In this document: in pieces, positions 9,521 to 31,215 of the stretch
Position numbering within the stretch: position 1 is the first letter of the stretch
Layout of the letters: each line of letters begins with the position of its first letter
Source of the DNA: Candidatus Yanofskybacteria bacterium RIFCSPHIGHO2_02_FULL_43_17
Lineage (GTDB): Bacteria > Patescibacteriota > Minisyncoccia > 2-02-FULL-40-12 > GWA2-44-9
DNA length: 55,501 bases
Direction of reading: 5' to 3'
Assembly: GCA_001794435.1 (NCBI GenBank)
Contig: MGJU01000013.1
Coordinates: forward strand, 157,196-212,696
Notes under the pieces: model-generated
What the model was told of the DNA's origin: nothing
What the model saw: the letters and a program-made list of their open reading frames with translations, nothing else
The model's database searches: none
Program-made: the position numbers and the translations under genes

Positions 9521-10921
9521 TTAATTTATTGGTCTGACCCGATAAATTACTCCTGTCACATCGTCGGAAATATATAGATTTCCGCCATTATCAAACTTAA
9601 GATCGACCGGCCGGCCGTAAACTTCTTTTTTGTTATCGCTTATCCATCCTGAAATAAAATCAACCGGCGCTTGTGATATTACATTTCCGTTTTTATCCAA
9701 ATCATATCTGACAACTTTATACCCCGTCAGTTCGCTTCTGTTCCATGAACCGTGAAAAGCCACCAACAAATCCCCTCCCCACTCCTTGGGCCATATCTTG
9801 ACATCGGATGTCCCTCGGCCATCCGATGTCGTTAATGAATTGCTGGGAACAAAAGCAAGCCCTAACGGCGCCGAATGAGCCGGAATTTCGATAACCGGCG
9901 GCTCCGTCTGACTACAGTCGTCGGTAATATCAATTCGTTCCCATTTTTTCGGGTTAAATTTTTTATCCTTAACTTTATCGCCATAGCAGAACGGCCAGCC
10001 GTAACGACGAGCGCCGAATTTATGTTCCGGACCGGCAACCTTGATAATATTTATTTCGTCCGGCGGCAAGTCATCGCCTAAATTGTCTCGCCCCATTTCT
10101 GTCGCCCATATTTCTTTTGTCACCGGATGAAAGACAAAGAAAACAGAGTTCCTCAAACCGCCGGCAAACTCCGCCGTATAACTGCCTTCAGAATCCGATT
10201 CTAATATCGCCGCTCTCTTCCATGTGCTTTCTTCGCAAACATCACAAGACGAACCGATGCTAATATAAAGTTTTGTGTCCACTTGAGTATTAACGCTTGT
10301 CCCTTCTAATATCTGCTTGGTTCGAAAGTTCGGCCCGAACGCGATAGTTCTAGTAAAATGCCCGCCTGCCGGCGAGGCAGGTCCTCCGTCGGCCGGAAGG
10401 TTGACAATGTTTTCGCCTGTTGTGCTGATAAGCTTACCGACACCTGCATCATAAGAGTATCTATTCACTCGATGCGTTTCGGCGACATATAAATAAACAG
10501 TCCCCGTCTTAGTGTCTTTATAAAAATCCAGTCCGTGAGGCGATTTCAATCCGTCAATCAAAACACGCTTGTTTTCAAAACCGCCACTTGCCCCGAGCAC
10601 TGTCGAGAAATCTAAAATACTGACCCTGCCCGCCTTTGTCTCGCTAATCAGCATTCTGCCTTTTGAGTCAAATACTATAACTCGAGGATTTTCCAAGCCC
10701 CTAGCAACAACAGAAATTTCAAAACCCTCCGGAATATCTAAAAATGGCAGTTCTCCGCCATCCACCGAAACCGTCTCCGGCTCCTTAAATTCCGGGGCGT
10801 TATCGCCAATAAATTTTTTAACAAAATTAAAGTCAGTAAAAAAAAGATGGGCAAAAATTACTACCGTTATCAGCGATACGGCCCATAATTTAAAGTTGGA
10901 AATTAAAAATTTAAAACTCAT
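9521..10921 (-). CDS. PQQ-dependent sugar (glucose/sorbosone) dehydrogenase-like beta-propeller, membrane anchored
   Basis: 466-aa ORF; N-terminal TM; motifs GLENPRVIVFDSKGRMLISE, LKSPHGLDF, YGWPFCYG, PAHSAPLGLAF, GRPVDLKFDNGGNLYISDD; in-frame hairpin element at 9797-9835. Confidence 0.7.
   Translation of the reverse strand: MSFKFLISNFKLWAVSLITVVIFAHLFFTDFNFVKKFIGDNAPEFKEPETVSVDGGELPFLDIPEGFEISVVARGLENPRVIVFDSKGRMLISETKAGRVSILDFSTVLGASGGFENKRVLIDGLKSPHGLDFYKDTKTGTVYLYVAETHRVNRYSYDAGVGKLISTTGENIVNLPADGGPASPAGGHFTRTIAFGPNFRTKQILEGTSVNTQVDTKLYISIGSSCDVCEESTWKRAAILESDSEGSYTAEFAGGLRNSVFFVFHPVTKEIWATEMGRDNLGDDLPPDEINIIKVAGPEHKFGARRYGWPFCYGDKVKDKKFNPKKWERIDITDDCSQTEPPVIEIPAHSAPLGLAFVPSNSLTTSDGRGTSDVKIWPKEWGGDLLVAFHGSWNRSELTGYKVVRYDLDKNGNVISQAPVDFISGWISDNKKEVYGRPVDLKFDNGGNLYISDDVTGVIYRVRPIN
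9797..9835. repeat. T-hairpin element copy T1 (39 nt, short form), inside CDS
   Basis: cttgacatcggatgtcc-ctc-ggccatccgatgtcgttaa; 14-bp arms with 1 mismatch; read in frame as LTTSDGRGTSDVK. Confidence 0.8.
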
Positions 10922-17146: not shown

Positions 17147-19066
17147 CTATTTGATAGTTAGTTGTCGAATAAGTTCCGCTATCAACTTCCCCGTCTCCGG
17201 GTCAACGCTGGAATACTTCAGTCCTTCGTTAAGATCAATGAGCGCTTTCTCTTTGTTGTTAAGGGCGACATAAACAAGCGCGGAATTGTAGTAGACGCGA
17301 GGATTACCGGGGAGAAGTAGTTTTAATTTTTCTATATTTATTACCGTTTGAATAAAATCCCCCCGCTGTGCATAGATAACCGCCAAGTTTTGGTACGGGT
17401 AAAAAAAGCCGGGGTCAATCTCTATGGCCTTATTGAACTCTGCAATCGCGCCCTCAATGTCGCCCCTCGACTGCAATATGCTCCCGATATTAAAATGCGG
17501 CTGGGCAAAATCGTTCCCCGACCCGACGGCTTTTCTGTAATAAAACTCGGCCCGATCCATATCTCCTTGATTAAAATATCGGTTGCCAAGATTATTATTT
17601 ATCTTGATGCTGTCCGGCTCGTATTTGAGAATGTCTTTATAAAATTCGACGGGATTGCCCCATAAGACATTTCGCTGGACAGATTGATAACCAAAGAAAA
17701 GCAGGTAAGCTAGCAAGCCCGTAAGCAATAAGCCACGAAAAATTAGGTTTTTGGATTTTAAGAAATCAAACAGTTTAATCAAATAAAAAGAAGCTATGAG
17801 CCAAAAGCCGACCATCGGCAGATAAAGCCAGTGTTCGTATATTAAGGCGTTGATTGGCGTAATCCCGGAGACCATCGCCAGACCGATGAAAAACCAACCC
17901 GTTCCGAATAGCCAAATTCGGAATGGGAAAATTGTTACATTGTTAAATTGTCGAATTGTTGCACCTTCAGATTGTTGAATTGTTACATTGTTAAACCTCT
18001 CCTTCTTATACATAACAATTAAACAATATAGCAATATAGCAATGATTGTAGCACCAAGCCAGACCGGCCACTGGAACAGCGATGTATGCACCACCATACT
18101 TCGTTCCATATGAAGACCTGTGGGCACGAACAGTAAGCGGAAGTAATCAATCAGAACGTGCATAAAGGTAAAGAGGCGATAAATTATATTTTCCGAATAT
18201 GGGTTGGCTTTACTGTAGAAATTCAGAGTATTTTGAAAATTCAAAACCGTTAAGCGTAATATTCCGTAAACAGCAACAACCCCGAAATAAGGCAATGCTT
18301 CTTTAAACGCGTTCTTGACATCGAACACCTTAACGCCTGATGTCCCGCGGCCATCCAATGCCCGCCCGTCCTCTGGCGCGGTCGTTAATTTATTCTTATC
18401 GGAAAACGCGATATAAAACACCATCAAGAGAAAAGGAAATATAACTCCCGTTTCCCGGCTCAAAATCGCCAAAACAAAAGCCGCCAAAGACAAGGTTTTA
18501 AGCCACCGAAACCCTGTGGATAATCGACTTCGCAAGTCGATTATCCACAGGTAGAGGGCGAGGAGAATAAAGAACACCGACAACGGATCGCCACGGCCGG
18601 AGATATATGCAACAGCTTCGGTGTTGAGAGGATGAATAGCAAAAAAAAGCGCGGTTAAGAAGGCCACAATCTGGCCGGCATATCTTCGCAATAAAACAAA
18701 TACCAGCACTGCGTTGGCAATATGTATTGAGTTGCTTACTAAATGCCAAAGGAACGGTTTCGTTTCGGATACAACCCAATTAAGAGCAAAAGTGAAAAAG
18801 AGGAACGGTCTGTAATAGTTGCTCTGAAGTCCGATTCCAGCTAACGCATTGTTGGAAAACCAAAACTTTATACTTTCCCAATTTATTGAGTGGACGTAAA
18901 CATTGTTGATTATCCAATCATCGTCATCCCAAAAAAGCTCGTTGTTCAAGTTAAAAGAATAGACAAAACCGCCTATTACCACCAGGAATATAATCGGCAA
19001 CCATGCTTCTTTTTTATTCAGCAAGTTCATATTTATACTTTGAAAAAACCGGCCTATTCTTATCAT
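17147..19066 (-). CDS. TMTC-like polytopic membrane protein with C-terminal TPR repeats (paralog of 15210-17072)
   Basis: 639-aa ORF (alternative ATG at 19030); LFWDDDDWIINN motif, multiple TM helices, TPR repeats; contains three different mini-elements in frame. Confidence 0.6.
   Translation of the reverse strand: MIRIGRFFQSINMNLLNKKEAWLPIIFLVVIGGFVYSFNLNNELFWDDDDWIINNVYVHSINWESIKFWFSNNALAGIGLQSNYYRPFLFFTFALNWVVSETKPFLWHLVSNSIHIANAVLVFVLLRRYAGQIVAFLTALFFAIHPLNTEAVAYISGRGDPLSVFFILLALYLWIIDLRSRLSTGFRWLKTLSLAAFVLAILSRETGVIFPFLLMVFYIAFSDKNKLTTAPEDGRALDGRGTSGVKVFDVKNAFKEALPYFGVVAVYGILRLTVLNFQNTLNFYSKANPYSENIIYRLFTFMHVLIDYFRLLFVPTGLHMERSMVVHTSLFQWPVWLGATIIAILLYCLIVMYKKERFNNVTIQQSEGATIRQFNNVTIFPFRIWLFGTGWFFIGLAMVSGITPINALIYEHWLYLPMVGFWLIASFYLIKLFDFLKSKNLIFRGLLLTGLLAYLLFFGYQSVQRNVLWGNPVEFYKDILKYEPDSIKINNNLGNRYFNQGDMDRAEFYYRKAVGSGNDFAQPHFNIGSILQSRGDIEGAIAEFNKAIEIDPGFFYPYQNLAVIYAQRGDFIQTVINIEKLKLLLPGNPRVYYNSALVYVALNNKEKALIDLNEGLKYSSVDPETGKLIAELIRQLTIK
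17931..18045. repeat. 8-nt-period inverted array (ATTGTTNN)n ... (AACAATNN/AGCAATNN)n inside CDS
   Basis: eight 8-nt units at 17931-17994, seven starting ATTGT (17-nt direct duplication attgttacattgttaaa); reverse-oriented units aacaatta aacaatat agcaatat agcaatga at 18014-18045. Confidence 0.75.
18314..18388. repeat. T-hairpin element copy T2 (long, composite form), inside CDS
   Basis: cttgacatcg...ttaacgcctgatgtcccgcggccatccaatg-cccgcccgtcctctggcgcg-gtcgttaa; shares about 55 nt with T4 in opposite orientation; read as LTTAPEDGRALDGRGTSGVKVFDVK. Confidence 0.7.
18514..18550. repeat. REP palindrome copy 2, inside CDS
   Basis: Identical 37-mer; read in frame as LWIIDLRSRLSTG. Confidence 0.95.
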
Positions 19067-20624
19067 TGTTTTTAACCAAGATTATAGCATTTTCGTTAAT
19101 AAACACCACTTTCCAGTCAGAATTCCTAATTATACTTTTTAAGAACGCTTGCCCCCACGGCGTCGCGTCAGTGTGGCCGAAAAATATGAAGTTAATACCA
19201 TATTTGTTGGAAAACTCCTCCCACTTCTCTCTGTTTTCCTGCATCGGCTTGTATATCTCGCTGAAAAATTCTACTGAATATGCCTCCGGGCGGTTATCAA
19301 CGAATACTTTTTCCTCCGGCAATTTCCATATCAGATAGCCGCCAATGTCAAAATTATTGAACATAGGCCCCTCTATATTATTCTTCTTAACAAAACTAGC
19401 CGCACGTTCCAGTCCGTCTGGAACTGAAAAACCGAAAGTTTTTGATAATCTCGCCCATTTATAATAACCTCCGCTCGCCACAAAAAAAATCATAAAAACC
19501 AGAAAAACGACCAGCAACATCTTGGCCGCCCACTGAAGCCTGGCTTCTGCCTGCCTCCAGAAGCCTGGCTTCTGGAAAGCTGAAAACACATCGGTTAGCA
19601 AGATTACCATCACCGGAAAAGATGCCAGCGCGTATAAGGGCAAATTGCGAAGCATCCTGAATCCGGCATAAATAAAGAAGGTGGAAATTAAAATTTCGAA
19701 AATCCTTTCTTTTGTCTTCTTGACGGTCAGCAAAAAAGAAACAACCAGAACCGCCGTTGAGATCTTAAAAATAAAAATCGACAAATTAAAACCGAATAAA
19801 TCAGCCAAAAAAGCAAGCGTTTGGTTTTCAACAATGCTGTAACCATATTCTTTCAGGATATTAAAAGGCAGTAGCGCTCCCTGAATTCCGGCGGGATTTA
19901 TAAGAGTAGCCAATCCGATCAATCCGCCGACCAGTAACAATTTTTGTATTACGTATTTCGTATTTCGTATTATGGGATCAAATAAGCGGTCAATAAAAAA
20001 GGCCAAAAACAAGATTGGGCCGATGAAGAAATAGATGTGGAGGTTAACCCACAACAACTGCGCCAACGGCAAAAACCATAACCAAGACGGAGTTTTAACA
20101 TCGGGAGTCCCGCGGACTTCCGATGTTGTTAATTCGTATTTCGCCTTAAACAACGCGGATAAGAAAAACGCTAGTATCAAAAAACTGAAAATCTCCGGCC
20201 TCACCTCCGTCCGGGAAATAAATATAAATATTGAGAGAACGAAAGAAACAATTATTGGCCAAAAACCTACTCTAACCCCTGTGGATAATCGACTTCGCAA
20301 GTCGATTATCCACAGGGGTTTAATGGTTAAAAGCAAGAGTATAAACGTCGCCAGAACTACAAAAATCTTAAGCAAGATAAGGCCGGTGAATCCGCCCAAA
20401 TTATAGACGCCGTAAAATATTACTTCGCTTAGCCAATGATGATTTGTAAACGGAAAGTCCGGCTCGGTGAAAGAGAATAGGTTGGTTGTCGGAACACTTT
20501 TTGTCTCCCAAATTATCTCCCCTGTCTTCAAATGCCGCCCGATATCCTGGCCGATAGAATCAAAATTGTGAACCAGAAAAACGGCCAGAAGACCGAAAAG
20601 AAGAATAAAAGTCAGGAGTTTCAT
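19014..20624 (-). CDS. Polytopic membrane protein, possibly GT-C-type glycosyltransferase (function uncertain)
   Basis: 536-aa ORF with more than 10 TM helices and a soluble C-terminal domain; contains four different mini-elements in frame; overlaps the start of 17147-19066. Confidence 0.5.
   Translation of the reverse strand: MKLLTFILLFGLLAVFLVHNFDSIGQDIGRHLKTGEIIWETKSVPTTNLFSFTEPDFPFTNHHWLSEVIFYGVYNLGGFTGLILLKIFVVLATFILLLLTIKPLWIIDLRSRLSTGVRVGFWPIIVSFVLSIFIFISRTEVRPEIFSFLILAFFLSALFKAKYELTTSEVRGTPDVKTPSWLWFLPLAQLLWVNLHIYFFIGPILFLAFFIDRLFDPIIRNTKYVIQKLLLVGGLIGLATLINPAGIQGALLPFNILKEYGYSIVENQTLAFLADLFGFNLSIFIFKISTAVLVVSFLLTVKKTKERIFEILISTFFIYAGFRMLRNLPLYALASFPVMVILLTDVFSAFQKPGFWRQAEARLQWAAKMLLVVFLVFMIFFVASGGYYKWARLSKTFGFSVPDGLERAASFVKKNNIEGPMFNNFDIGGYLIWKLPEEKVFVDNRPEAYSVEFFSEIYKPMQENREKWEEFSNKYGINFIFFGHTDATPWGQAFLKSIIRNSDWKVVFINENAIILVKNNDKNRPVFSKYKYELAE
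19534..19575. repeat. 17-nt direct repeat of a palindromic unit (gaagcctggcttc) inside CDS
   Basis: ctgaagcctggcttctg at 19533-19549 and cagaagcctggcttctg at 19558-19574 (16/17 identical); translated QKPGFWRQAEARLQW. Confidence 0.7.
19944..19971. repeat. Heptamer array (NCGTATT)x4, inside CDS
   Basis: ttgtatt acgtatt tcgtatt tcgtatt; translated IRNTKYVIQ. Confidence 0.75.
20095..20132. repeat. T-hairpin element copy T3 (short form), inside CDS
   Basis: ttaacatcgggagtcc-cgc-ggacttccgatgttgttaa; read as LTTSEVRGTPDVK. Confidence 0.8.
20279..20315. repeat. REP palindrome copy 3, inside CDS
   Basis: Identical 37-mer; arms extend to 20 bp (cccctgtgg...ccacagggg, 20276-20318); read as LWIIDLRSRLSTG. 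Confidence 0.95.
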
Positions 20625-20632
20625 TTATTAAT

Positions 20633-20663
20633 AACTTCGCAAGTCCAATGGACTTGCGAAGTT
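20633..20663. repeat. REP-core variant hairpin (no DnaA-box arms), intergenic
   Basis: aacttcgcaagtcca-a-tggacttgcgaagtt; shares the cttcgcaagtc / gacttgcgaag core with the REP; sits between the stop of 20684-21355 and the start of 19014-20624. Confidence 0.6.
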
Positions 20664-20683
20664 GATAATCACCGGCATTGCGT

Positions 20684-21355
20684 TTACGGCAGAACTACTG
20701 TTATTTTCCCGTCGCACTGTTTCTCAAACACTTTCACATTGCCTCCGACTGTTACGAAATTGCCTTTATCGTCCACAAGCCGGCCATACTGCATCTTGGC
20801 GGTTAATTCGTATTGTTCATATTTAGGATTTTCCGGCAAAGTGATGCTTAGTAAATTTTCTCCGTTCGGCAGAACCAATCTACCGAAAATATTCGGCCCA
20901 ACCGATAAATCGTCTTGGGGAATTACCGTCCAGAAAATATTCCTTGCCGGATGGTCAACACCGCTGTAAATGAATTTCGCGTCTTGGTTGTCGTAAGTAT
21001 TGTGATTAAGAAATTTGATTTCGCCTTGCAAACGGCACGATGCCTGGCCCAAAAGCAAACTCCACGGCACCGGCTCGTCTGTAAAGGAGGTCCTACCATC
21101 TCCGGTAGGCAAAGGCACGCTTGACGCGATCGGTCTGGGAGTTGGCATTGGAGAAAGATTGTCTGTTGCTTGCGGTGAGCCAGTCGAATCCGCTGACGGT
21201 TCCGGAGAATTAATGGCCGCGCCAGAGGACGGGCGGGCATCGGATGGCTGTTGGACATCCGATGTCCAACGCCAAAATCCCCCGAAATAAACAGCGGACA
21301 AAACTGCTCCGATGATCACAATTAATAAAAATAATTTGTTTTTTAATATAGTCAT
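20684..21355 (-). CDS. Membrane-anchored hypothetical protein
   Basis: Start moved to the ATG at 21355 (MTILKNKLFLLIVIIGAV, TM helix); the longer 21487 start would read through a structured palindrome; T4 element sits in frame near the N-terminus. Confidence 0.5.
   Translation of the reverse strand: MTILKNKLFLLIVIIGAVLSAVYFGGFWRWTSDVQQPSDARPSSGAAINSPEPSADSTGSPQATDNLSPMPTPRPIASSVPLPTGDGRTSFTDEPVPWSLLLGQASCRLQGEIKFLNHNTYDNQDAKFIYSGVDHPARNIFWTVIPQDDLSVGPNIFGRLVLPNGENLLSITLPENPKYEQYELTAKMQYGRLVDDKGNFVTVGGNVKVFEKQCDGKITVVLP
21210..21273. repeat. T-hairpin element copy T4 (long form), inside CDS
   Basis: ttaatggccgcgccagaggacgggcgggcatcggatggctgttggacatccgatgtccaacgcc; the first 34 nt match the reverse complement of T2 at 31/34. 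Confidence 0.7.
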
Positions 21356-21398
21356 AATCTTAAAATAGTAACTAAATAATCTTCTAAAATCAAGTAAA

Positions 21399-21469
21399 CC
21401 AGGTAGTAGATTTTTGAGATGCGGCTTTGGCCGCAAGTGGCAGAGCCAACTCAAAAATTCACTACCTGG
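21399..21469. other. 71-nt structured palindromic element (possible sRNA, leader structure or MITE)
   Basis: 20-nt arms ccaggtagtagatttttgag / ctcaaaaattcactacctgg (18/20 complementary) enclosing the gcggc-tttg-gccgc hairpin. Confidence 0.5.
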
Positions 21470-21477
21470 CAAACCAA

Positions 21478-21506
21478 AACCCCACACATAAATTATGTGT
21501 GGGGTT
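21478..21506 (-). terminator. Intrinsic terminator after the 1228-aa gene
   Basis: aaccccacacat-aaatt-atgtgtggggtt, 12-bp stem; followed on the minus strand by TTTGGTTTG. Confidence 0.75.
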
Positions 21507-25995: not shown

Positions 25996-28900
25996 TTACT
26001 TTGCGAGGACTACCCTGCCCCCATAACCCCACACCAATCCATGTTCGGTAAGGGCCGGAGAAATCGTTGAGTTTGAGCCGGAATTGATAGCCCAGCGCTG
26101 ATTTCCTGTGTTATCTACACTAAATAACTTGCCGTTTTGAGTGGAGAAATAGACATTACCGGCGCCGTCTACGGCCAATTGTGCATTGAGGAGACCGTCG
26201 GCCTGGAATGGGGCTGGCCATTTCGCCGCGAGGTCTGATTTATTCAAGGCAAAAACCTGCGAACCGGAAGCGAAACTGGGGCTGTTGAAACCGACATAGA
26301 GCGTGTCTGACGATATGGCAACCATCGTGGCGGCGGAATAGTCCCACGGGGCAATACTGCTGGAATTTAAAATTGAACCGTCGGATGGAATATTGAATAA
26401 TTTGGGACCGGCGGCGGAGTAGGTTATACCTGTTGCCTTATCGTATGAGGGATTGGCGGGAGTGCTACCATTGGCGCCGGCATAGGATACCTGCCAAAGT
26501 TGAGCGCTGTCGGATGAATAAGTAGTGAAAAATTGATTCCCGCTTACTTTTCCGGCCACGATCATTATACCGTCATCCAACACAACTGGCGCAAATCCGC
26601 TCAAACCGGAAGCGCTTATCGGAAAGGGTGTTTTTATTGAACCGTCGGCGTTTAAAACAGCCAGCTTATCGGTGCCGCTTGTGTAAGTAAGGTGCGGTTC
26701 GCCTTTTGATGATACAGTAAACGTCAAAACCGTACTTGTATCGACGTAATCCCACTTGTCAGAACCATCCGAGGCCAGAGCGGTAAATGCCAGCACTCCG
26801 CCCGCGCCAATGCGGCCGAAGTATACGGTTCCGTCGGAAAGAACCGCCGGCGTGCCGATGCTTACATAAGTCTCATATTCCCATTGTTTGACGCCATTTT
26901 TATTCAGTTTAATCAATTTGTGGGACGAGCCGTCCGTAGCGCCGAAATAGATATTGCCGTCAGCGTCAGCCACCGGCTGGCTTACAATGTATCCTGATTC
27001 CAGTTCGTTAAATTCCCAGCTTACGGTTGCCGTCAGGCCTGGACCGACTACATCAGCAAAAGAAGTATGAAACTGGTCCTTGCCGAACATCGCCCAAGCG
27101 CCATGATCTAAAGCGGTCGGAAAACTAACCGTAGCCACATTCGAAATCCCCGAACACTTATCTGCATGACCGACATCGCAAGTCGGACTGTGGATAACTT
27201 TGGTCCTCAAAGCGAGGTAAAGCGTCAATCCGTATTCAGGAACAACATTAAAAGAAATACCTTGTTGCGCCCCCTTTATACCAACGCTCGGCAAACTGGA
27301 ACTGGCAACTTGTATAGCGACAGACCACCAGCTTTCACTTGCGGCATCGCTAAAACTGGTAGACGAGTAGCGCAGATCATAGCTTAAACTTGCCGTATTA
27401 TAATCGCCCGGATCGGGTGCAGTCCAGGTTGCGGTAATAGTGGGGGAACCGTGGGCGGCGATGAGATTGGTAACGACAGACGGTTTTGATGCTACGTCAC
27501 CGACCGTTATCAAGTCTTTTATGTTGTTAAATGTAACCGGGCCGATACCGCTGACATTCTGAATATCCTCTATTTGCGCGAAGGGGCCGTTGGTTGTGCG
27601 ATAATCAATAATTGCTTGCGATTTTACTTCACCAATACCGGGAAGAGACATCAACTCTTCTTTGTTTGCGGTGTTAATATTGATTTTCTCGGTTGATGAT
27701 TCTTCTTCCGGTTCTGGTGACGGCGATGGTGTCACCGACGGAGATGGTATCGGGGTTGGTGTCGAAGACGAACTTCCGCCACCGCTTCCGCTTCCGCCAC
27801 CTCCGCCAGTCGACGTAACAACCTGAATTGCCGTGCTATTACTGGTTTTGGGCGTTCCGTTGATACTATTTCCACTAGCATCTTTGTTTGTTGGCGTCCC
27901 GGAAAAATTTTTCCAATTTGAAGCATTGTTTCCAGCTTTCATCGGATCTATTCTCTCCATCGAATTTTTTGATATTGAGTCGCCGAAATACCAGGCCTCA
28001 CCAGCACCGCCAACTACATCTACAACGGCCCCGGCGCTATCAAATAGTCTTACTATTTCGCCCGTGTTGCTCAAACCTCCCTGACCGAAACTTACAGCCA
28101 AATCAGCTGTTGTGTCGCTTATTGTGTTGTCATCTGTTCTTTCGATGAGAAAGTAGGAATTAGCTTGGATAATCGTCCCTTCTGGAAAAATAATATCCGG
28201 AGAATCATCGGTTGAAACAAGTTGCCAGCTAGATATGTCTACTGGTGTGTTTTCAGTATTATACAGCTCGACCCACTCGTCGGTCGCGGAAGCCGAGGTT
28301 CCCGCCCAAGCAATTTCATTGACCACTACTCTGCCCAATGTCTTGGCTGCGGATAACTTTGGAGTAGGTGACGGAGTTGGTGTTTTTGGTGGTGTCGGTG
28401 TGGGAGATGGTGACAACTTTGGTGACATTGATGGTTTTGGTGATACCAATGGTGACAGAGATGGTGACATTTTGTTGTCACCTTTAGCGTCACCGCTGTC
28501 ACCATTATTTGTCACCACTGGTAAGGGTTTAATGTCGGGTGTCGCTAATTCGTCGTTAGCATCTGATGTCGAACTTGTGCCTAACTCTGCTAATTCATCG
28601 CTGTTATTACCGCCAAACCCAAACAAACTGGCAATCTGTGCCCAAAAGCTTGGCTTTTTTTGCTCTTGTTTCGCTAGATATTCTTTCTTTGCTATCTCTG
28701 CTTCTTCTAAAAATAATTTTAGGGCGCCGGCGCCGCTAATAACAACTTCTTTAGACAACCTCTCCCAGTACCCGTCAAGGATGTAGGAGCCAATTTCTGA
28801 CGAATAAACATAAAAATTAATATTGCCGTCTTTTTCTTCCTGCACAAATGCTATCGGAAAGTCGGCTCCATTTTTATCCTGGTTAGTAACAAATAATCTT

Positions 28901-29691
28901 TCTGTACCATTGACTCTTATTCTTTTTAGATTGTTTATACTTGGTTTTATGTATTCTCTGTTGCTAATGGTGTCTCTGCTAAAGAAATTGTTATTAGAAT
29001 AATTCGCAACTCTATCCAAGTAACTGCCAATATCAGATAACACGACTGGTTTTTCTCTGTTTCTAACCAATCTTGAAACAACTTGAAAATTATCCGGATT
29101 CCATTTAGCCATTTCGTGTTCGTAAGGACTGCCTAAATCAAGAACAGGTGGGTGTGGGTCATTTCTAGTGTGGTCTGGCACTCCGGCGTCTTCCAATAAG
29201 TGCAATACATGGCCGAAAGCGATGAAAGCCCTTTGTTTATCGCCTTTTGCGTAATCCTGAATCGCCCTATCGTATGAGAAATCGTGTATTGAATCAGCGC
29301 CCGATATGGCCGCGTATCCGGTCATTTGGCTGTTATAGAAGTCCTTCTGCGTACCACCAAAAGCCCACTTTTTTGAGGAAAAGGTAGGTACGCCTGCGGT
29401 GAATACCGACTGAAGCCCTCGGTCATAAACCGGGTCATAAAAATGGCTGAAAAACCTGCCCCCGTCGTCCTCATCAATTGAGCCCTTTATAAGCCACTGT
29501 TTCTCCTCTTGAGTTATCGTCTTGTCTGTAAAACTTAAATTATAGAAATTAGCTATCTCGTCAGTCAGCGCCGGATGAGTGGTGTTTTGAGAATAAGCAA
29601 AAATCGGGCTCGCGTTTACGAGTACCAAAAGGACGCTTAATAGCGCCCCTCCTAAAATAAATTTATGGTTTATAAACCTTCTATTTTCCAT
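25996..29691 (-). CDS. Secreted multidomain protein: Zn-PLC/P1-nuclease-like N-domain, lamin-tail domain, ComEA-type HhH DNA-binding domain, beta-propeller repeats
   Basis: 1231-aa ORF; HVLHLLEDAGVPDHTRND (PLC/P1-like); VVVNEIAWAGTSASATDEWVELYN...SNTGEIVRLFD (LTD); ININTANKEELMSLPGIGEVKSQAIIDYR...VSGIGPVTFNNIKDLI (ComEA HhH, about 27505-27692); DGNIYFG / DGTVYFG repeats. Confidence 0.7.
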   Translation of the reverse strand: MENRRFINHKFILGGALLSVLLVLVNASPIFAYSQNTTHPALTDEIANFYNLSFTDKTITQEEKQWLIKGSIDEDDGGRFFSHFYDPVYDRGLQSVFTAGVPTFSSKKWAFGGTQKDFYNSQMTGYAAISGADSIHDFSYDRAIQDYAKGDKQRAFIAFGHVLHLLEDAGVPDHTRNDPHPPVLDLGSPYEHEMAKWNPDNFQVVSRLVRNREKPVVLSDIGSYLDRVANYSNNNFFSRDTISNREYIKPSINNLKRIRVNGTERLFVTNQDKNGADFPIAFVQEEKDGNINFYVYSSEIGSYILDGYWERLSKEVVISGAGALKLFLEEAEIAKKEYLAKQEQKKPSFWAQIASLFGFGGNNSDELAELGTSSTSDANDELATPDIKPLPVVTNNGDSGDAKGDNKMSPSLSPLVSPKPSMSPKLSPSPTPTPPKTPTPSPTPKLSAAKTLGRVVVNEIAWAGTSASATDEWVELYNTENTPVDISSWQLVSTDDSPDIIFPEGTIIQANSYFLIERTDDNTISDTTADLAVSFGQGGLSNTGEIVRLFDSAGAVVDVVGGAGEAWYFGDSISKNSMERIDPMKAGNNASNWKNFSGTPTNKDASGNSINGTPKTSNSTAIQVVTSTGGGGGSGSGGGSSSSTPTPIPSPSVTPSPSPEPEEESSTEKININTANKEELMSLPGIGEVKSQAIIDYRTTNGPFAQIEDIQNVSGIGPVTFNNIKDLITVGDVASKPSVVTNLIAAHGSPTITATWTAPDPGDYNTASLSYDLRYSSTSFSDAASESWWSVAIQVASSSLPSVGIKGAQQGISFNVVPEYGLTLYLALRTKVIHSPTCDVGHADKCSGISNVATVSFPTALDHGAWAMFGKDQFHTSFADVVGPGLTATVSWEFNELESGYIVSQPVADADGNIYFGATDGSSHKLIKLNKNGVKQWEYETYVSIGTPAVLSDGTVYFGRIGAGGVLAFTALASDGSDKWDYVDTSTVLTFTVSSKGEPHLTYTSGTDKLAVLNADGSIKTPFPISASGLSGFAPVVLDDGIMIVAGKVSGNQFFTTYSSDSAQLWQVSYAGANGSTPANPSYDKATGITYSAAGPKLFNIPSDGSILNSSSIAPWDYSAATMVAISSDTLYVGFNSPSFASGSQVFALNKSDLAAKWPAPFQADGLLNAQLAVDGAGNVYFSTQNGKLFSVDNTGNQRWAINSGSNSTISPALTEHGLVWGYGGRVVLAK
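27171..27197. repeat. Degenerate/rearranged REP remnant inside CDS
   Basis: cgacatcgcaagtcg (14/15 to the REP centre) followed by ctgtggataa (10/10 to the REP arm start); translated VIHSPTCDVG. Confidence 0.4.
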
Positions 29692-30499: not shown

Positions 30500-30536
30500 C
30501 TGTGGATAATCGACTTGCGAAGTCGATTATCCACAG
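30500..30536. repeat. REP palindrome copy 5, immediately 5' of the RAYT gene
   Basis: Identical arms, loop gcg (opposite orientation to copy 4); ends 13 nt before the ATG at 30550. Confidence 0.95.
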
Positions 30537-30549
30537 GTATACTGCTGGA

Positions 30550-31215
30550 ATGGAAAATGTTTATCACACATTAAATCGTGGAGTAGAGAAACGAGAAATC
30601 TTTATGGATAAACAAGATTATCTTAGATTTATCCACAATCTTTATGAGTTCAATGACGAGGATAGGATTGAGAATTCTATCAAGATTTTTCTAACTGATC
30701 CTAAGCTAGCCGATACTACTACTAGAAAGAGAAGAAAAACCCTCGTTGATATTCTTGCTTTTTGTTTGATGCCCAACCATTATCACCTGATGCTTTCACC
30801 GCAAGTCAAAAACGGAATTCCCAAGTTTATGGCTAAAGTTAATATCGGTTACGCCAAATATTTCAACCAAAAATACGAAAGAGTTGGCGCATTGTTTCAG
30901 GGAAGATACAAACAAGTACCAATCACTGACAATACTCATTTTCTCCATTTGCCGTTCTATATTCACTTTAACCCCCTCGACTTAAAATTTCCGGAATGGA
31001 GAGAAAACAAAATAGCAAGTCCGCAAAAGACGCTCGAGTTTCTCGAGTCCTACAAATGGAGTAGCCACTTAGAATATCTCGGCGTAAAAAATTATGGCTC
31101 GGTTTTAAATAAAAAAGTTTTAAACGAAGTTTTCGATGGAAGCGCCGGTTATAAAAAACTTGTTGAGACATATCTAAAAGACATCCAGGTAGATAGCGAA
31201 GTTTCTCTTGAATAA
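30550..31215 (+). CDS. REP-associated tyrosine transposase (RAYT; IS200/IS605-like HUH Y1 transposase family)
   Basis: 221 aa from the ATG at 30550; HUH motif in LMPNHYHLML, catalytic Tyr context FQGRYKQVPI, N-terminal YHTLNRGVEKREIF; flanked on both sides by REP copies. Confidence 0.8.
   Translation: MENVYHTLNRGVEKREIFMDKQDYLRFIHNLYEFNDEDRIENSIKIFLTDPKLADTTTRKRRKTLVDILAFCLMPNHYHLMLSPQVKNGIPKFMAKVNIGYAKYFNQKYERVGALFQGRYKQVPITDNTHFLHLPFYIHFNPLDLKFPEWRENKIASPQKTLEFLESYKWSSHLEYLGVKNYGSVLNKKVLNEVFDGSAGYKKLVETYLKDIQVDSEVSLE

What the first reader, a model, noticed from the sequence alone, without database searches (positions are those of the whole stretch)
9797..9835. Second in-frame hairpin family (TTAAC...GTTAA, 39 nt = 13 codons) read as LTTSDGRGTSDVK
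There are short copies in three unrelated genes: 9797-9835 in a PQQ-dehydrogenase-like gene, 20095-20132 in a polytopic membrane protein, and one embedded in 18314-18388 in a TPR membrane protein. All are translated in the same frame as L-T-T-S-(D/E)-(G/V)-R-G-T-(S/P)-D-V-K. Each is a 14-bp-arm hairpin with a 3-nt loop, the same geometry as the REP but an unrelated sequence. The long form (18314-18388 and 21210-21273) equals the short form plus a 21-nt block, cgcgccagaggacgggcgggc. So both forms preserve the reading frame.
Basis: seen in the sequence. Interest (0 to 1): 0.65.

Follow-up and report, generated by a model that had tools for sequence, protein, structure and literature searches.

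The report
Translated REP-like hairpins inside CPR genes
A 39-base DNA hairpin repeat, related to the repeats that flank this tiny bacterium's single-strand transposase gene, sits inside working genes and is read through as an extra 13-residue surface loop, so selfish palindromic DNA here lives in coding sequence rather than between genes.

Summary
The window has five hairpins of this family plus one hybrid. Two are 39-nt short forms: 9797-9835 in a PQQ-type sugar dehydrogenase and 20094-20132 in a polytopic membrane protein. Two are 60-nt long forms: 18329-18388 in a TPR membrane protein and 21210-21269, read from the other strand in a fourth gene. An intergenic hybrid lies at 20628-20668, and a decayed copy lies on contig C7.

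The family occurs in 16 of 105 genomes of the order, at 1-11 copies each; a reversed-pattern control gave 0. Across 40 copies the stem covaries strongly, and the compensating changes alter residues (S to F or C). Maintenance therefore acts on the nucleic acid, not the peptide.

The 13 residues are absent from 16 of 19 family orthologues. In 119 homologues the same loop shows at least 4 gains or losses. All 34 copies in long ORFs are read in the ACA-TCG-GAT (T-S-D) phase, on either strand.

The hairpin shares its foot and core with the 21-nt REPs that flank the RAYT transposase gene in sister species. It looks like an inverted REP doublet, a mini-REPIN. Mobilisation by the RAYT is inferred, not shown.

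Verdict: a new variant of known kinds (REP/REPIN by origin, Rickettsia palindromic elements by behaviour).

The parts
9797..9835 (-). Short form (39 nt, 13 codons): TTAACGACATCGGATGGCC-GAG-GGACATCCGATGTCAAG, read as LTTSDGRGTSDVK in the GSDH/TrAA12-type dehydrogenase
   Evidence: Absent from 16 of 19 orthologues. Lies in a low-confidence surface coil of the AlphaFold model.
9521..10921 (-). Host gene 1: PQQ-dependent sugar dehydrogenase-like beta-propeller (466 aa)
   Evidence: Pfam PF22807 and PF07995. Source names of homologues. Model with mean pLDDT 80.1.
20094..20132 (-). Short form (39 nt) with symmetric inner stem (GTCC/GGAC), read as LTTSEVRGTPDVK
   Evidence: Lies in the hydrophilic loop 162-192 between hydrophobic segments. 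The G002 orthologue has a different, unrelated insert at the same loop.
19014..20624 (-). Host gene 2: polytopic membrane protein (536 aa, no Pfam hit)
18329..18388 (-). Long form (60 nt, 20 codons) with decayed stem, read as LTTAPEDGRALDGRGTSGVK
   Evidence: The site is empty in the G002 orthologue.
17147..19066 (-). Host gene 3: multi-pass membrane protein with C-terminal TPR repeats (639 aa)
   Evidence: Pfam TPR families. Hydropathy places the insert in loop 211-256.
21210..21269 (+). Long form (60 nt) in the opposite orientation, read from the minus strand as WTSDVQQPSDARPSSGAAIN just after the single membrane helix of ORF 20684-21487
   Evidence: The orthologous site holds the short form in G002 and G090.
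20628..20668 (+). Intergenic hybrid: TTAATAACTTCGCAAGTCC-AAT-GGACTTGCGAAGTTGATAA. It has this family's foot, CC-NNN-GG centre and geometry, but its arms carry the tip of the window's RAYT-flanking REP.
   Evidence: Fold -15.8 kcal/mol, z = -9.8.
30502..31215 (+). RAYT-type Y1 (HUH) transposase gene, the candidate mobilising enzyme, flanked here by REP-1 hairpins (foot TAATCGAC)
   Evidence: Pfam PF01797. Flanking hairpins. Orthologues in sister species are flanked by TAACGACAT-NNN-ATGTCGTTA.

Best explanation
The hairpin is a second, older family of REP-type selfish DNA in Candidatus Yanofskybacteria.

Each copy is an inverted doublet of the 21-nt REP singlet TAAC-GACAT-NNN-ATGTC-GTTA, written [TTAAC-GACAT-CGG-ATGKC]-C-NNN-G-[GACAT-CCG-ATGTC-(GTTAA)]. 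It folds as one 14-position stem, which makes it a miniature REPIN.

Inferred mechanism: the genome's vertically inherited RAYT (a Y1/HUH single-strand DNA transposase), or an earlier specificity of it, copied these units as single-stranded hairpins. Genes fill most of these genomes. The unit is 39 or 60 nt long and has no stop in the ACA-TCG-GAT phase on either strand, so insertions into surface or inter-helix loops survive and are translated as a hydrophilic T-S-D-rich loop. Insertions in the phases closed by TAA or TGA are lost.

In this genome the copies are mostly relics. They are diverged, decayed or shared with sister species, and the active REP now has a different outer stem.

Shown here: the repeat family, the hairpin covariation, the insertion polymorphism, the exclusive reading phase, and the sequence kinship with RAYT-flanking REPs.

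Inferred: RAYT-dependent mobility, translation of the insert, and selective neutrality.
For: Family and spread
- Found in 16 of 105 genomes of the order; the reversed-pattern control gave 0 everywhere.
- Identical cores, variable loop included, lie in unrelated genes of one genome: G002:C6:2199 versus C3:44434 (28/29) and G099:C3:57873 versus 58957 (29/29). This is the signature of copying.

Hairpin maintained at the nucleic-acid level
- Over 40 copies, 94.5% of cells pair. Ten of 14 pairs have double changes. There are 40 compensated cells against 8.1 in shuffles (0 of 500 shuffles reach this), and register slides collapse pairing to 22-41%.
- The compensating changes alter residues non-conservatively: TSD/TSD becomes TSN/TFD or TSQ/TCD.

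Insertion status
- The 13 aa are present only in G000 and G002 among 19 family orthologues.
- Among 119 homologues the loop is 30-33 aa in 89. Fourteen carry the hairpin peptide, 4 carry a nested variant and 8 carry a short remnant.
- On the tree the label needs 12 changes for 14 presences, and strongly supported branches force at least 4.
- Filled versus empty sites between G000 and the syntenic G002:C3 are seen at sites B and E.
- G099 carries copies at other loops of the same two membrane genes.

Reading phase
- 34 of 40 copies lie in ORFs of 170 aa or more. All 34 are in the T-S-D phase, 22-23 on the top strand and 11-12 on the bottom strand.
- (2/3)^26 is about 3e-5 for roughly 26 independent sites if the other open phase were equally used.

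Tolerated positions
- A coil with pLDDT below 50 between two propeller strands.
- Hydrophilic loops between hydrophobic segments.

Kinship with the RAYT's REPs
- Orthologous RAYT genes are flanked by TAACGACAT-TCA-ATGTCGTTA (G003, G022), TAACGACA-TCGAG-TGTCGTTAA (G040) and TTAACGACAC-GGG-GTGTCGTTAA (G042, G041).
- Such singlets are abundant (G003 21, G022 17). Some carry the exact hairpin arm, for example CAACGACAT-CGG-ATGTCGTTA in G018.
- The window hybrid at 20628-20668 is the same doublet built from the REP-1 tip.
- The same REP-1-tip doublet sits in the dehydrogenase loop of other lineages; DNA was checked in L102.
- RAYT homologues occur in 15 of 16 hairpin-bearing genomes against 35 of 89 others (Fisher p = 5e-5, not corrected for phylogeny).
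- The window RAYT matches Pfam Y1_Tnp.

Not an assembly artefact
- The identical 466-aa protein is on 11 contigs from several sources.
Against: - No RAYT in any genome examined is flanked by the doublet itself. In the window's own genome the RAYT flanks have the foot TAATCGAC inside a longer CCTGTGGA stem, so present-day recognition of this hairpin is unproven.
- Copy numbers are very low, and most window copies are diverged or shared with relatives, so there is no sign of current activity in G000.
- No target-site duplication or consensus target could be defined. The insertion boundaries are ambiguous because the host loops vary.
- With a random-insertion-plus-filter model one would expect enrichment between genes. 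Instead 85% of copies are genic, about the coding fraction of at least 0.85. The model as stated does not explain this.
- Long and short forms swap at orthologous sites (A and D), which simple vertical decay does not explain.
Confidence: 0.62

Rival explanations
1. It is an autonomous-looking palindromic insert like the Rickettsia palindromic elements. On this reading it is selfish DNA that colonises coding sequence by an unknown mechanism unrelated to the RAYT, and the shared foot with the REPs is convergence or chance.
For: The behaviour is the same as RPEs as summarised in PMC10969869: in-frame inserts in unrelated genes at surface positions. No RAYT is flanked by this doublet. G090 keeps a copy without any RAYT homologue at E <= 1e-5.
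Against: The foot (9-10 nt) and core match RAYT-flanking singlets in register in at least four genomes. Singlets with the exact arm exist. A hybrid built from the REP-1 tip has the same architecture. A chance match of a 9-nt foot in register against about 6 REP types is of the order of 1e-5.
Confidence: 0.15
2. The copies spread mainly by homologous or microhomology-driven processes rather than by transposition. Candidates are gene conversion between copies, template switching at palindromes and recombination between strains. These would act at a few permissive loops that already hold a related remnant.
For: - Nested and tandem copies and half copies occur at the same sites: G002 site F has two tandem copies, site E one and a half, and site A an extra right end; L102 has a new doublet beside an old right half.
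- Long and short forms are exchanged at orthologous sites A and D.
- The dehydrogenase loop changes state at least 4 and up to 12 times.
- The empty target has GGATGGCC, identical to 8 nt of the stem.
- One database protein (P0122) is a chimera of two lineages.
Against: Sites B and E are filled in one genome and cleanly empty in the other, with no remnant. Copies sit at different loops of the same genes in distant genomes. Identical cores lie in unrelated genes with unrelated flanks. All of these need a non-homologous insertion step.
Confidence: 0.13
3. The hairpin is kept because it does something for the cell. It might be a DNA site for a host protein (each arm holds the near-palindrome ACATCSGATGT), an mRNA structure that paces translation at loop boundaries of membrane and secreted proteins, or a source of loop variation in envelope proteins.
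For: The stem is conserved through compensation over order-level distances. There is an excess of genic copies relative to a pure filter model. Hosts are mostly membrane or large surface proteins.
Against: Most orthologues and most genomes lack it: 89 of 105 genomes, and 89 of 119 dehydrogenases. Copies decay in place, for example the G000 site F and C7 remnants and the 'SSGQV' stubs. No positional rule beyond 'a loop' was found. No Rfam family matches.
Confidence: 0.07
4. It is a conserved peptide motif or low-complexity linker rather than a DNA element, or it is an assembly artefact.
For: The peptide is similar in many proteins (TSD...TSDV) and lies in linker-like regions of surface proteins.
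Against: Compensatory stem changes alter residues. The loop codons vary freely. The same DNA is read from both strands and also lies between genes. The identical sequence was assembled on 11 contigs from several sources.
Confidence: 0.03

Closest known systems
REP / REPIN elements with their RAYT (REP-associated tyrosine transposase): Nunvar 2010; Bertels & Rainey 2011 (PMC3116915, PMC3337134); Ton-Hoang 2012 (the last from my own knowledge)
   Same: - Short imperfect palindromes with a stem that is maintained.
- A doublet of inverted REPs folding as one hairpin, as in a REPIN.
- A single, vertically inherited Y1/HUH transposase gene that is itself flanked by REPs of matching foot and core.
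- Several REP variants per lineage.
- Tandem or clustered copies.
   Different: - 85% of copies are inside genes and translated, whereas REPs are by name extragenic.
- The unit is only 39-41 nt with a 3-5-nt spacer, whereas REPINs are about 100 nt.
- The conserved 5' flank is TTAAC, not GTAG.
- There are 1-11 copies per genome instead of hundreds.
- The host is an ultra-small CPR bacterium.
- The RAYT in this genome is flanked by a sister REP type, not by this hairpin.
Rickettsia palindromic elements (RPE; Ogata et al. 2000, 2002, as summarised in PMC10969869)
   Same: Palindromic repeats inserted in frame in unrelated, still functional genes. They are translated as extra peptide segments at positions compatible with the fold, and they occur in a reduced genome.
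   Different: - RPEs are about 100-150 bp with no known transposase and no relation to REPs.
- Here the unit is 39 or 60 nt.
- Both strands give the same kind of peptide.
- A candidate enzyme and parental singlet repeats are identifiable.
- There is no sequence similarity and the phylum is different.
IS200/IS605-family single-strand transposition and its non-autonomous derivatives (PATEs) (from my own knowledge)
   Same: Hairpin ends recognised as single-stranded DNA by a Y1 HUH enzyme. No target duplication. Precise excision is possible, which would fit repeated gain and loss at one site.
   Different: No left-end and right-end pair, no defined target tetranucleotide found, and no enzyme gene inside the element.
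[quoted passage not shown] 2010, PMC2996958)
   Same: Coding DNA with dyad symmetry, dispersed among membrane-targeted proteins of small-genome bacteria.
   Different: PARCELs are 25-residue amphipathic units in long tandem arrays that make up whole ORFs. Here there are single 13-20-residue hydrophilic inserts in otherwise conserved enzymes.

Membership tests
REP/REPIN-RAYT system | Short imperfect palindrome that folds into a stable hairpin, with the stem maintained across copies | tested here: met
   Folds at -10.8 to -19.5 kcal/mol with z from -4.4 to -9.8. 94.5% of cells paired, 10 of 14 pairs compensated, 0 of 500 shuffles as high.
REP/REPIN-RAYT system | Many dispersed copies within one genome | tested here: inconclusive
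   Dispersed, but only 6 copies in G000, 5 in G001, about 11-14 in G002 and 1 in G003.
REP/REPIN-RAYT system | A single-copy RAYT (Y1 HUH transposase) gene flanked by REPs of the same family | tested here: inconclusive
   A RAYT is present (PF01797). Its flanks in G000 are REP-1. In G003, G022, G040 and G042 the orthologue is flanked by singlets that share foot and core with this hairpin. No RAYT is flanked by the doublet itself.
REP/REPIN-RAYT system | REPIN architecture: two REPs in inverted orientation forming one long hairpin | tested here: met
   Each arm equals the singlet TTAAC-GACAT-CGG-ATGTC. Singlets with this exact sequence exist. The same doublet design built from the REP-1 tip lies at 20628-20668 and in L102.
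REP/REPIN-RAYT system | Extragenic location | tested here: not met
   34 of 40 copies lie inside ORFs of at least 170 aa.
REP/REPIN-RAYT system | Conserved 5' GTAG next to the stem (proteobacterial REPs; from my own knowledge) | tested here: not met
   The conserved 5' flank is (A)TTAAC (alignment A1).
REP/REPIN-RAYT system | RAYT binds and cleaves the repeat as single-stranded DNA | not testable with these tools
   Needs biochemistry.
Rickettsia palindromic elements | In-frame insertion into unrelated functional genes at positions compatible with the fold | tested here: met
Rickettsia palindromic elements | Element of about 100-150 bp belonging to one of the RPE sequence families of Rickettsia | tested here: not met
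   39 or 60 nt, in a CPR host. The size and taxon differ (for the RPE description). Sequence similarity to RPEs was not searched.
MITE | Terminal inverted repeats plus a target-site duplication, derived from an IS by internal deletion | tested here: inconclusive
   The whole element is one palindrome. No direct repeat was seen at filled sites A, B and E, but boundaries are ambiguous. No parent IS was found.
PARCEL | Tandem arrays of a 25-residue amphipathic repeat | tested here: not met
   Single hydrophilic 13-20-residue inserts, at most two in tandem. PARCEL description.

The most novel reading that the evidence does not exclude
In these gene-dense CPR genomes the REP/RAYT system has shifted its habitat into coding sequence. 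The repeats have been shaped so that both strands read as a harmless T-S-D-rich loop in one phase and hit stop codons in the others. RAYT-type precise excision and re-insertion keep turning the same protein loops over, seen as at least 4-12 state changes in one dehydrogenase loop, long/short swaps and nested copies. The element would then act as a built-in generator of loop variation in envelope proteins, not only as junk.
Probability: 0.2. Interest if true: 0.8.

Novelty: new variant of a known kind. Interest (0 to 1): 0.6.

Why it matters
REPs are defined as extragenic, and their RAYT partnership is known almost only from Proteobacteria. This family has a recognisable REP pedigree, runs from singlet to doublet, and lives mainly inside genes of ultra-small bacteria, where it is read through.

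- It links two phenomena so far treated apart: REP/REPIN-RAYT systems and the 'protein-coding palindromes' of Rickettsia.
- It offers a candidate enzyme for in-frame palindromic inserts, which RPEs never had.
- It warns annotators that 13-20-residue 'TSD...TSDV' loops in CPR proteins are DNA-level inserts, not protein motifs.
- The dehydrogenase loop, with many filled, empty, nested and decayed states in public data, is a ready natural experiment on insertion and excision rates.

Tried and rejected
- **Partner gene bracketed by the hairpin.** Two identical copies 1.08 kb apart in G099:C3 looked like a bracketed gene. They are separate in-frame inserts in the adjacent TPR and polytopic genes.
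- **Proximity to the RAYT.** A hairpin copy lies about 1.85 kb from the RAYT in G018, G039, G042, G098, G099 and G002. Conserved synteny explains this: RAYT, a small gene, then a large surface protein with an old insert. It is not a terminal repeat.
- **Target motif.** TTAAC is not present at empty sites. The 8-nt GGATGGCC match between the empty target and the stem may be chance, since those are the conserved G-W-P codons.
- **Arms as self-folding mini-hairpins.** This holds for the ACATCGGATGT type but not for the GGAAG/CTTCC variants, so only the long hairpin is a constant feature.
- **The 21-nt block as an independent element.** It occurs only inside this hairpin: G000 twice, G002 once, G039 twice. 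The other hits are chance.
- **Population polymorphism from 90% clusters.** The one shorter member (P0122) is a chimera of two lineages, not a precise excision.
- **Rfam.** Nothing near the gathering scores.
- **Literature.** Nothing was found on REPs or RAYTs or in-frame palindromes in CPR/Patescibacteria in the held library.
- **Orientation bias of the asymmetric (G.A mismatch) subfamily.** 8 sense to 3 antisense, not significant.
Full report
**What is in the window**

- On the minus strand 9797-9835 reads TTAACGACATCGGATGGCC-GAG-GGACATCCGATGTCAAG.
- 20094-20132 reads TTAACAACATCGGAAGTCC-GCG-GGACTCCCGATGTTAAA.
- They are translated as LTTSDGRGTSDVK in ORF 9521-10921 and LTTSEVRGTPDVK in ORF 19014-20624.
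- The third copy (18329-18388, 60 nt) reads LTTAPEDGRALDGRGTSGVK in ORF 17147-19066.
- The fourth (21210-21269, 60 nt) lies in the other orientation. It is read from the minus strand as WTSDVQQPSDARPSSGAAIN, just after the membrane helix of ORF 20684-21487.
- MAFFT shows that the long form is the short form with one 21-nt block after TTAACGA(C).
- As single-stranded DNA the short forms fold into a 14-position stem with a 3-nt loop. Free energies are -14.1 and -10.8 kcal/mol, z = -6.9 and -4.4. Copy 1 has an internal G.A mismatch.
- The host genes are a GSDH/TrAA12-type PQQ sugar dehydrogenase, a multi-pass membrane protein with TPR repeats, a polytopic membrane protein and a single-pass protein.
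- Source names of close homologues place the genome in Candidatus Yanofskybacteria.

**Census**

In the window's own 0.86-Mb assembly there are only these four copies, one decayed copy on another contig, and one more hairpin found later.
- The decayed copy is at C7:4444-4472 and reads LAISEDQRTPDVN in a 547-aa ORF.
- The later find lies between genes at 20628-20668.

Outside this genome the family is real but sparse.
- All four genomes of the genus have it, with roughly 6, 5, 11-14 and 1 copies.
- It occurs in 9 of 62 genomes of the family and 16 of 105 of the order, in seven genera.
- The reversed-pattern control gave 0 matches in every genome.

**The hairpin, not the peptide, is what is maintained**

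Forty distinct copies were aligned without gaps (A1).
- For the 14-pair stem, 94.5% of cells pair and 10 of 14 pairs show changes on both sides.
- There are 40 compensated cells against 8.1 in shuffles, and 0 of 500 shuffles reach this.
- Sliding the partner by 1-3 columns drops pairing to 22-41%.
- Variants such as GGATG/CATCC, GGAAG/CTTCC, GAATG/CATTC and GCAAG/CTTGC change the encoded residues non-conservatively: TSD...TSD becomes TSN...TFD or TSQ...TCD.
- The three loop bases vary freely, giving GRG, GHR, GQR and GRW.
- One stem position splits the family into a T-A subfamily (20 copies) and a G.A-mismatch subfamily (17 copies).

**It is an insertion**

Nineteen orthologues of the dehydrogenase from the taxonomic family were aligned.
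- The 13 residues are present only in G000 (39 nt) and in G002 (84 nt: long form plus an extra right end).
- They are absent from the two other genomes of the genus and from 13 further genomes. One further genome (G005) has a 5-residue stub (SGQVS) at this site. The site lies between the invariant blocks AHSAPLGLAFxP and GWPKEWxGDLLVAFHGSWN.

Among 119 database homologues (57-100% identical), the stretch HSAPLG...HGSWN has these states:
- 30-33 residues long in 89;
- a hairpin peptide in 14, for example LATSDVRGTSDVK, LTTSNVSGTFDVK and LTTSDVHEASDVK;
- INDFASPEDLRNQ followed by ISDVR in 4;
- a short 'SSGQV' stub in 8.

On a tree built without the loop columns, the hairpin label needs 12 changes for 14 presences (shuffled mean 13.5). 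Strongly supported branches force at least 4. Filled and empty proteins are well-supported sisters, for example P0003 with P0028. The loop is thus a hot spot of gain and loss.

An AlphaFold2 model (mean pLDDT 80.1, pTM 0.81) puts residues 363-375 in a coil between strands 352-357 and 385-390. The pLDDT is below 50 at residues 364-367.

G002:C3 is syntenic with the window. The comparison gives further filled and empty pairs:
- The TPR-gene site is filled in G000 and empty in G002.
- A site in the 1231-aa surface protein is filled in G002 and empty in G000.
- A second site in that protein has two tandem copies in G002 and decayed remnants in G000.
- The polytopic-gene loop holds this hairpin in G000 and an unrelated 48-residue insert in G002.

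In G099, a different family of the order, the orthologues of the same two membrane genes carry copies at other loops. Identical cores, including the variable loop, sit in unrelated genes of one genome: G002:C6:2199 and C3:44434, and G099:C3:57873 and 58957. The unit has therefore been copied as a unit.

**Reading phase**

Of the 40 copies, 34 lie in ORFs of at least 170 aa. All 34 are read in the phase ACA-TCG-GAT, with 22-23 from the strand that begins TTAAC and 11-12 from the other strand.
- Because the sequence is a palindrome with an 18-nt arm offset, this phase gives T-S-D-(V/G)...T-S-D-V on either strand.
- The flanks close three of the six frames, with TAA in T|TAA|C and at the end of the reverse strand, and TGA in CT|TGA|C.
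- The remaining open phase (N-D-I-G-W-P-R-D-I-R-C-Q) is not used in any long ORF of this set. (2/3)^26 is about 3e-5 for about 26 independent sites. It does occur in the four dehydrogenases with the REP-1-tip variant.
- Six copies are in short ORFs or between genes. The genic share (85%) is about the coding fraction of the genome, which is at least 0.85 by a crude ORF cover. Unlike classical REPs, the family is not depleted from genes.

**Relation to the REP and the RAYT**

Homologues occur in 50 of 105 genomes of the order. The orthologous gene is flanked on both sides by hairpins with a common foot and core:

| Genome | RAYT-flanking hairpin |
|---|---|
| G000 | GGATAATCGACT-TGCG-AAGTCGATTATCC |
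| G002 | TAACCGACAT-TGA-ATGTCGGTTA |
| G003, G022 | TAACGACAT-TCA-ATGTCGTTA |
| G040 | TAACGACA-TCGAG-TGTCGTTAA |
| G042, G041 | TTAACGACAC-GGG-GTGTCGTTAA |

- The hairpin under study is TTAACGACAT-CGG-ATGKC-C-NNN-G-GACAT-CCG-ATGTC(GTTAA). The G042 copy has both feet and folds at -19.5 kcal/mol.
- Its foot and each of its arms are therefore the singlet REP.
- Singlets of this type are abundant in sister genomes: G003 21, G022 17, G040 13, G041 10. Some carry the exact arm: CAACGACAT-CGG-ATGTCGTTA in G018 and TAACGACATCGGGTGTCGTTA in G003.
- The intergenic hairpin at 20628-20668, TTAATAACTTCGCAAGTCC-AAT-GGACTTGCGAAGTTGATAA (-15.8 kcal/mol, z = -9.8), has the same design built from the REP-1 tip.
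- The same REP-1-tip doublet sits in the dehydrogenase loop of other lineages, next to the right half of an older copy. The DNA of L102 was checked.
- RAYT homologues are present in 15 of 16 hairpin-bearing genomes against 35 of 89 others (p = 5e-5, uncorrected for phylogeny).

The statement 'unrelated sequence' is thus wrong. The family is best described as an inverted REP doublet, a very small REPIN in the sense of Bertels and Rainey (PMC3116915, PMC3337134).

**What remains inferred or unexplained**

- No RAYT is flanked by the doublet. In G000 the RAYT's own REPs have a slightly different foot, so recognition is inferred from kinship, not shown.
- No target motif or duplication could be defined.
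- At two orthologous sites the long and short forms are exchanged. Site A is short in G000 and most clusters but long in G002. Site D is short in G002 and G090 but long in G000.
- The 21-nt block occurs only inside this hairpin. This points to conversion between copies or excision and re-insertion at the same place.
- Nested and tandem copies point the same way.
The conserved, open host genes on both sides of every insert argue that it is.
- The identical protein on 11 contigs from several sources rules out an assembly artefact.
- Rfam has nothing here.

**Comparison and verdict**

In behaviour the closest known case is the Rickettsia palindromic elements, in-frame palindromes in unrelated genes (PMC10969869). 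In origin the closest is the REP/REPIN-RAYT system. It differs from RPEs in size, host and in having an identifiable parent repeat and candidate enzyme. It differs from REPs in living inside genes, in its tiny size, its TTAAC flank and its low copy number.

The held literature has nothing on this in CPR bacteria. Earlier notes of this scan on the same genome describe the RAYT/REP-1 system and the multi-element membrane genes. I re-checked the RAYT, its flanks and the 20633-20663 hairpin myself. The link between the two families is new here.

I rate it a new variant of known kinds, interest 0.6. Confidence is 0.95 that it is an inserted, translated-frame palindromic repeat family and about 0.6 that it is a RAYT-dependent REP doublet.

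Noticed in passing
window 20628-20668: An intergenic 41-nt perfect hairpin sits 4 nt upstream of the start codon of the polytopic gene (19014-20624). It has this family's architecture with the REP-1 tip, and it would overlie the ribosome-binding region of that gene.
   Followed up: partly
window 17147-19066, residues about 355-383 (RFNNVTIQQSEGATIRQFNNVTIFPF): Another palindrome-like in-frame insert occupies the loop before RIWLFGTGWFFIGL. In G073, G074, G104 and G099 that same loop holds a copy of the hairpin studied here (LTTSDAVATSDVRIW...).
   Followed up: no
G002:C3:32459-36603 (L021), orthologues of the two membrane genes: The G002 orthologues are 85-90 residues longer than those in the window. 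They carry several other lineage-specific in-frame inserts rich in N, S, K, R and Q (for example KRSNASNN and SNNSNKQSR) at the same loops.
   Followed up: no
dehydrogenase homologues P0007, P0012, P0018, P0035, P0044, P0056, P0061, P0088 and G005 (L033): A 5-7-residue stub 'S-S-G-Q-V' sits at the same loop (DNA in G005: AGCTCAGGGCAAGTC). It looks like the left half of a decayed TSQV-type copy, which suggests decay by partial deletion.
   Followed up: partly
P0122 (SRR3989344 assembly): This protein is identical to the window's dehydrogenase for about 298 residues and then switches to the sequence of another lineage (like G036). It is either an assembly chimera or a natural recombinant.
   Followed up: no
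G003 and G022 whole genomes: The 21-nt singlet REP TAACGACAT-TCA-ATGTCGTTA is present 17-21 times. In G003 many copies carry the outer CCTGTGGATAA extension seen in the window's REP-1, so the DnaA-box-like outer stem is an add-on to the same core.
   Followed up: partly
G101: L093 (RAYT flanks) and L068 (two hairpin copies): In G101 the hairpin copies have the foot TTCCTGAC and the RAYT-flanking REP has the foot TTTCTGAC, instead of TTAACGAC. This hints that the hairpin foot and the REP foot co-vary between genomes.
   Followed up: partly
window 25996-29691, residues about 370-400 (ELAELGTSSTSDANDELATPDIK): Decayed remnants of two hairpin copies lie at the place where the G002 orthologue has two intact tandem copies.
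   Followed up: partly
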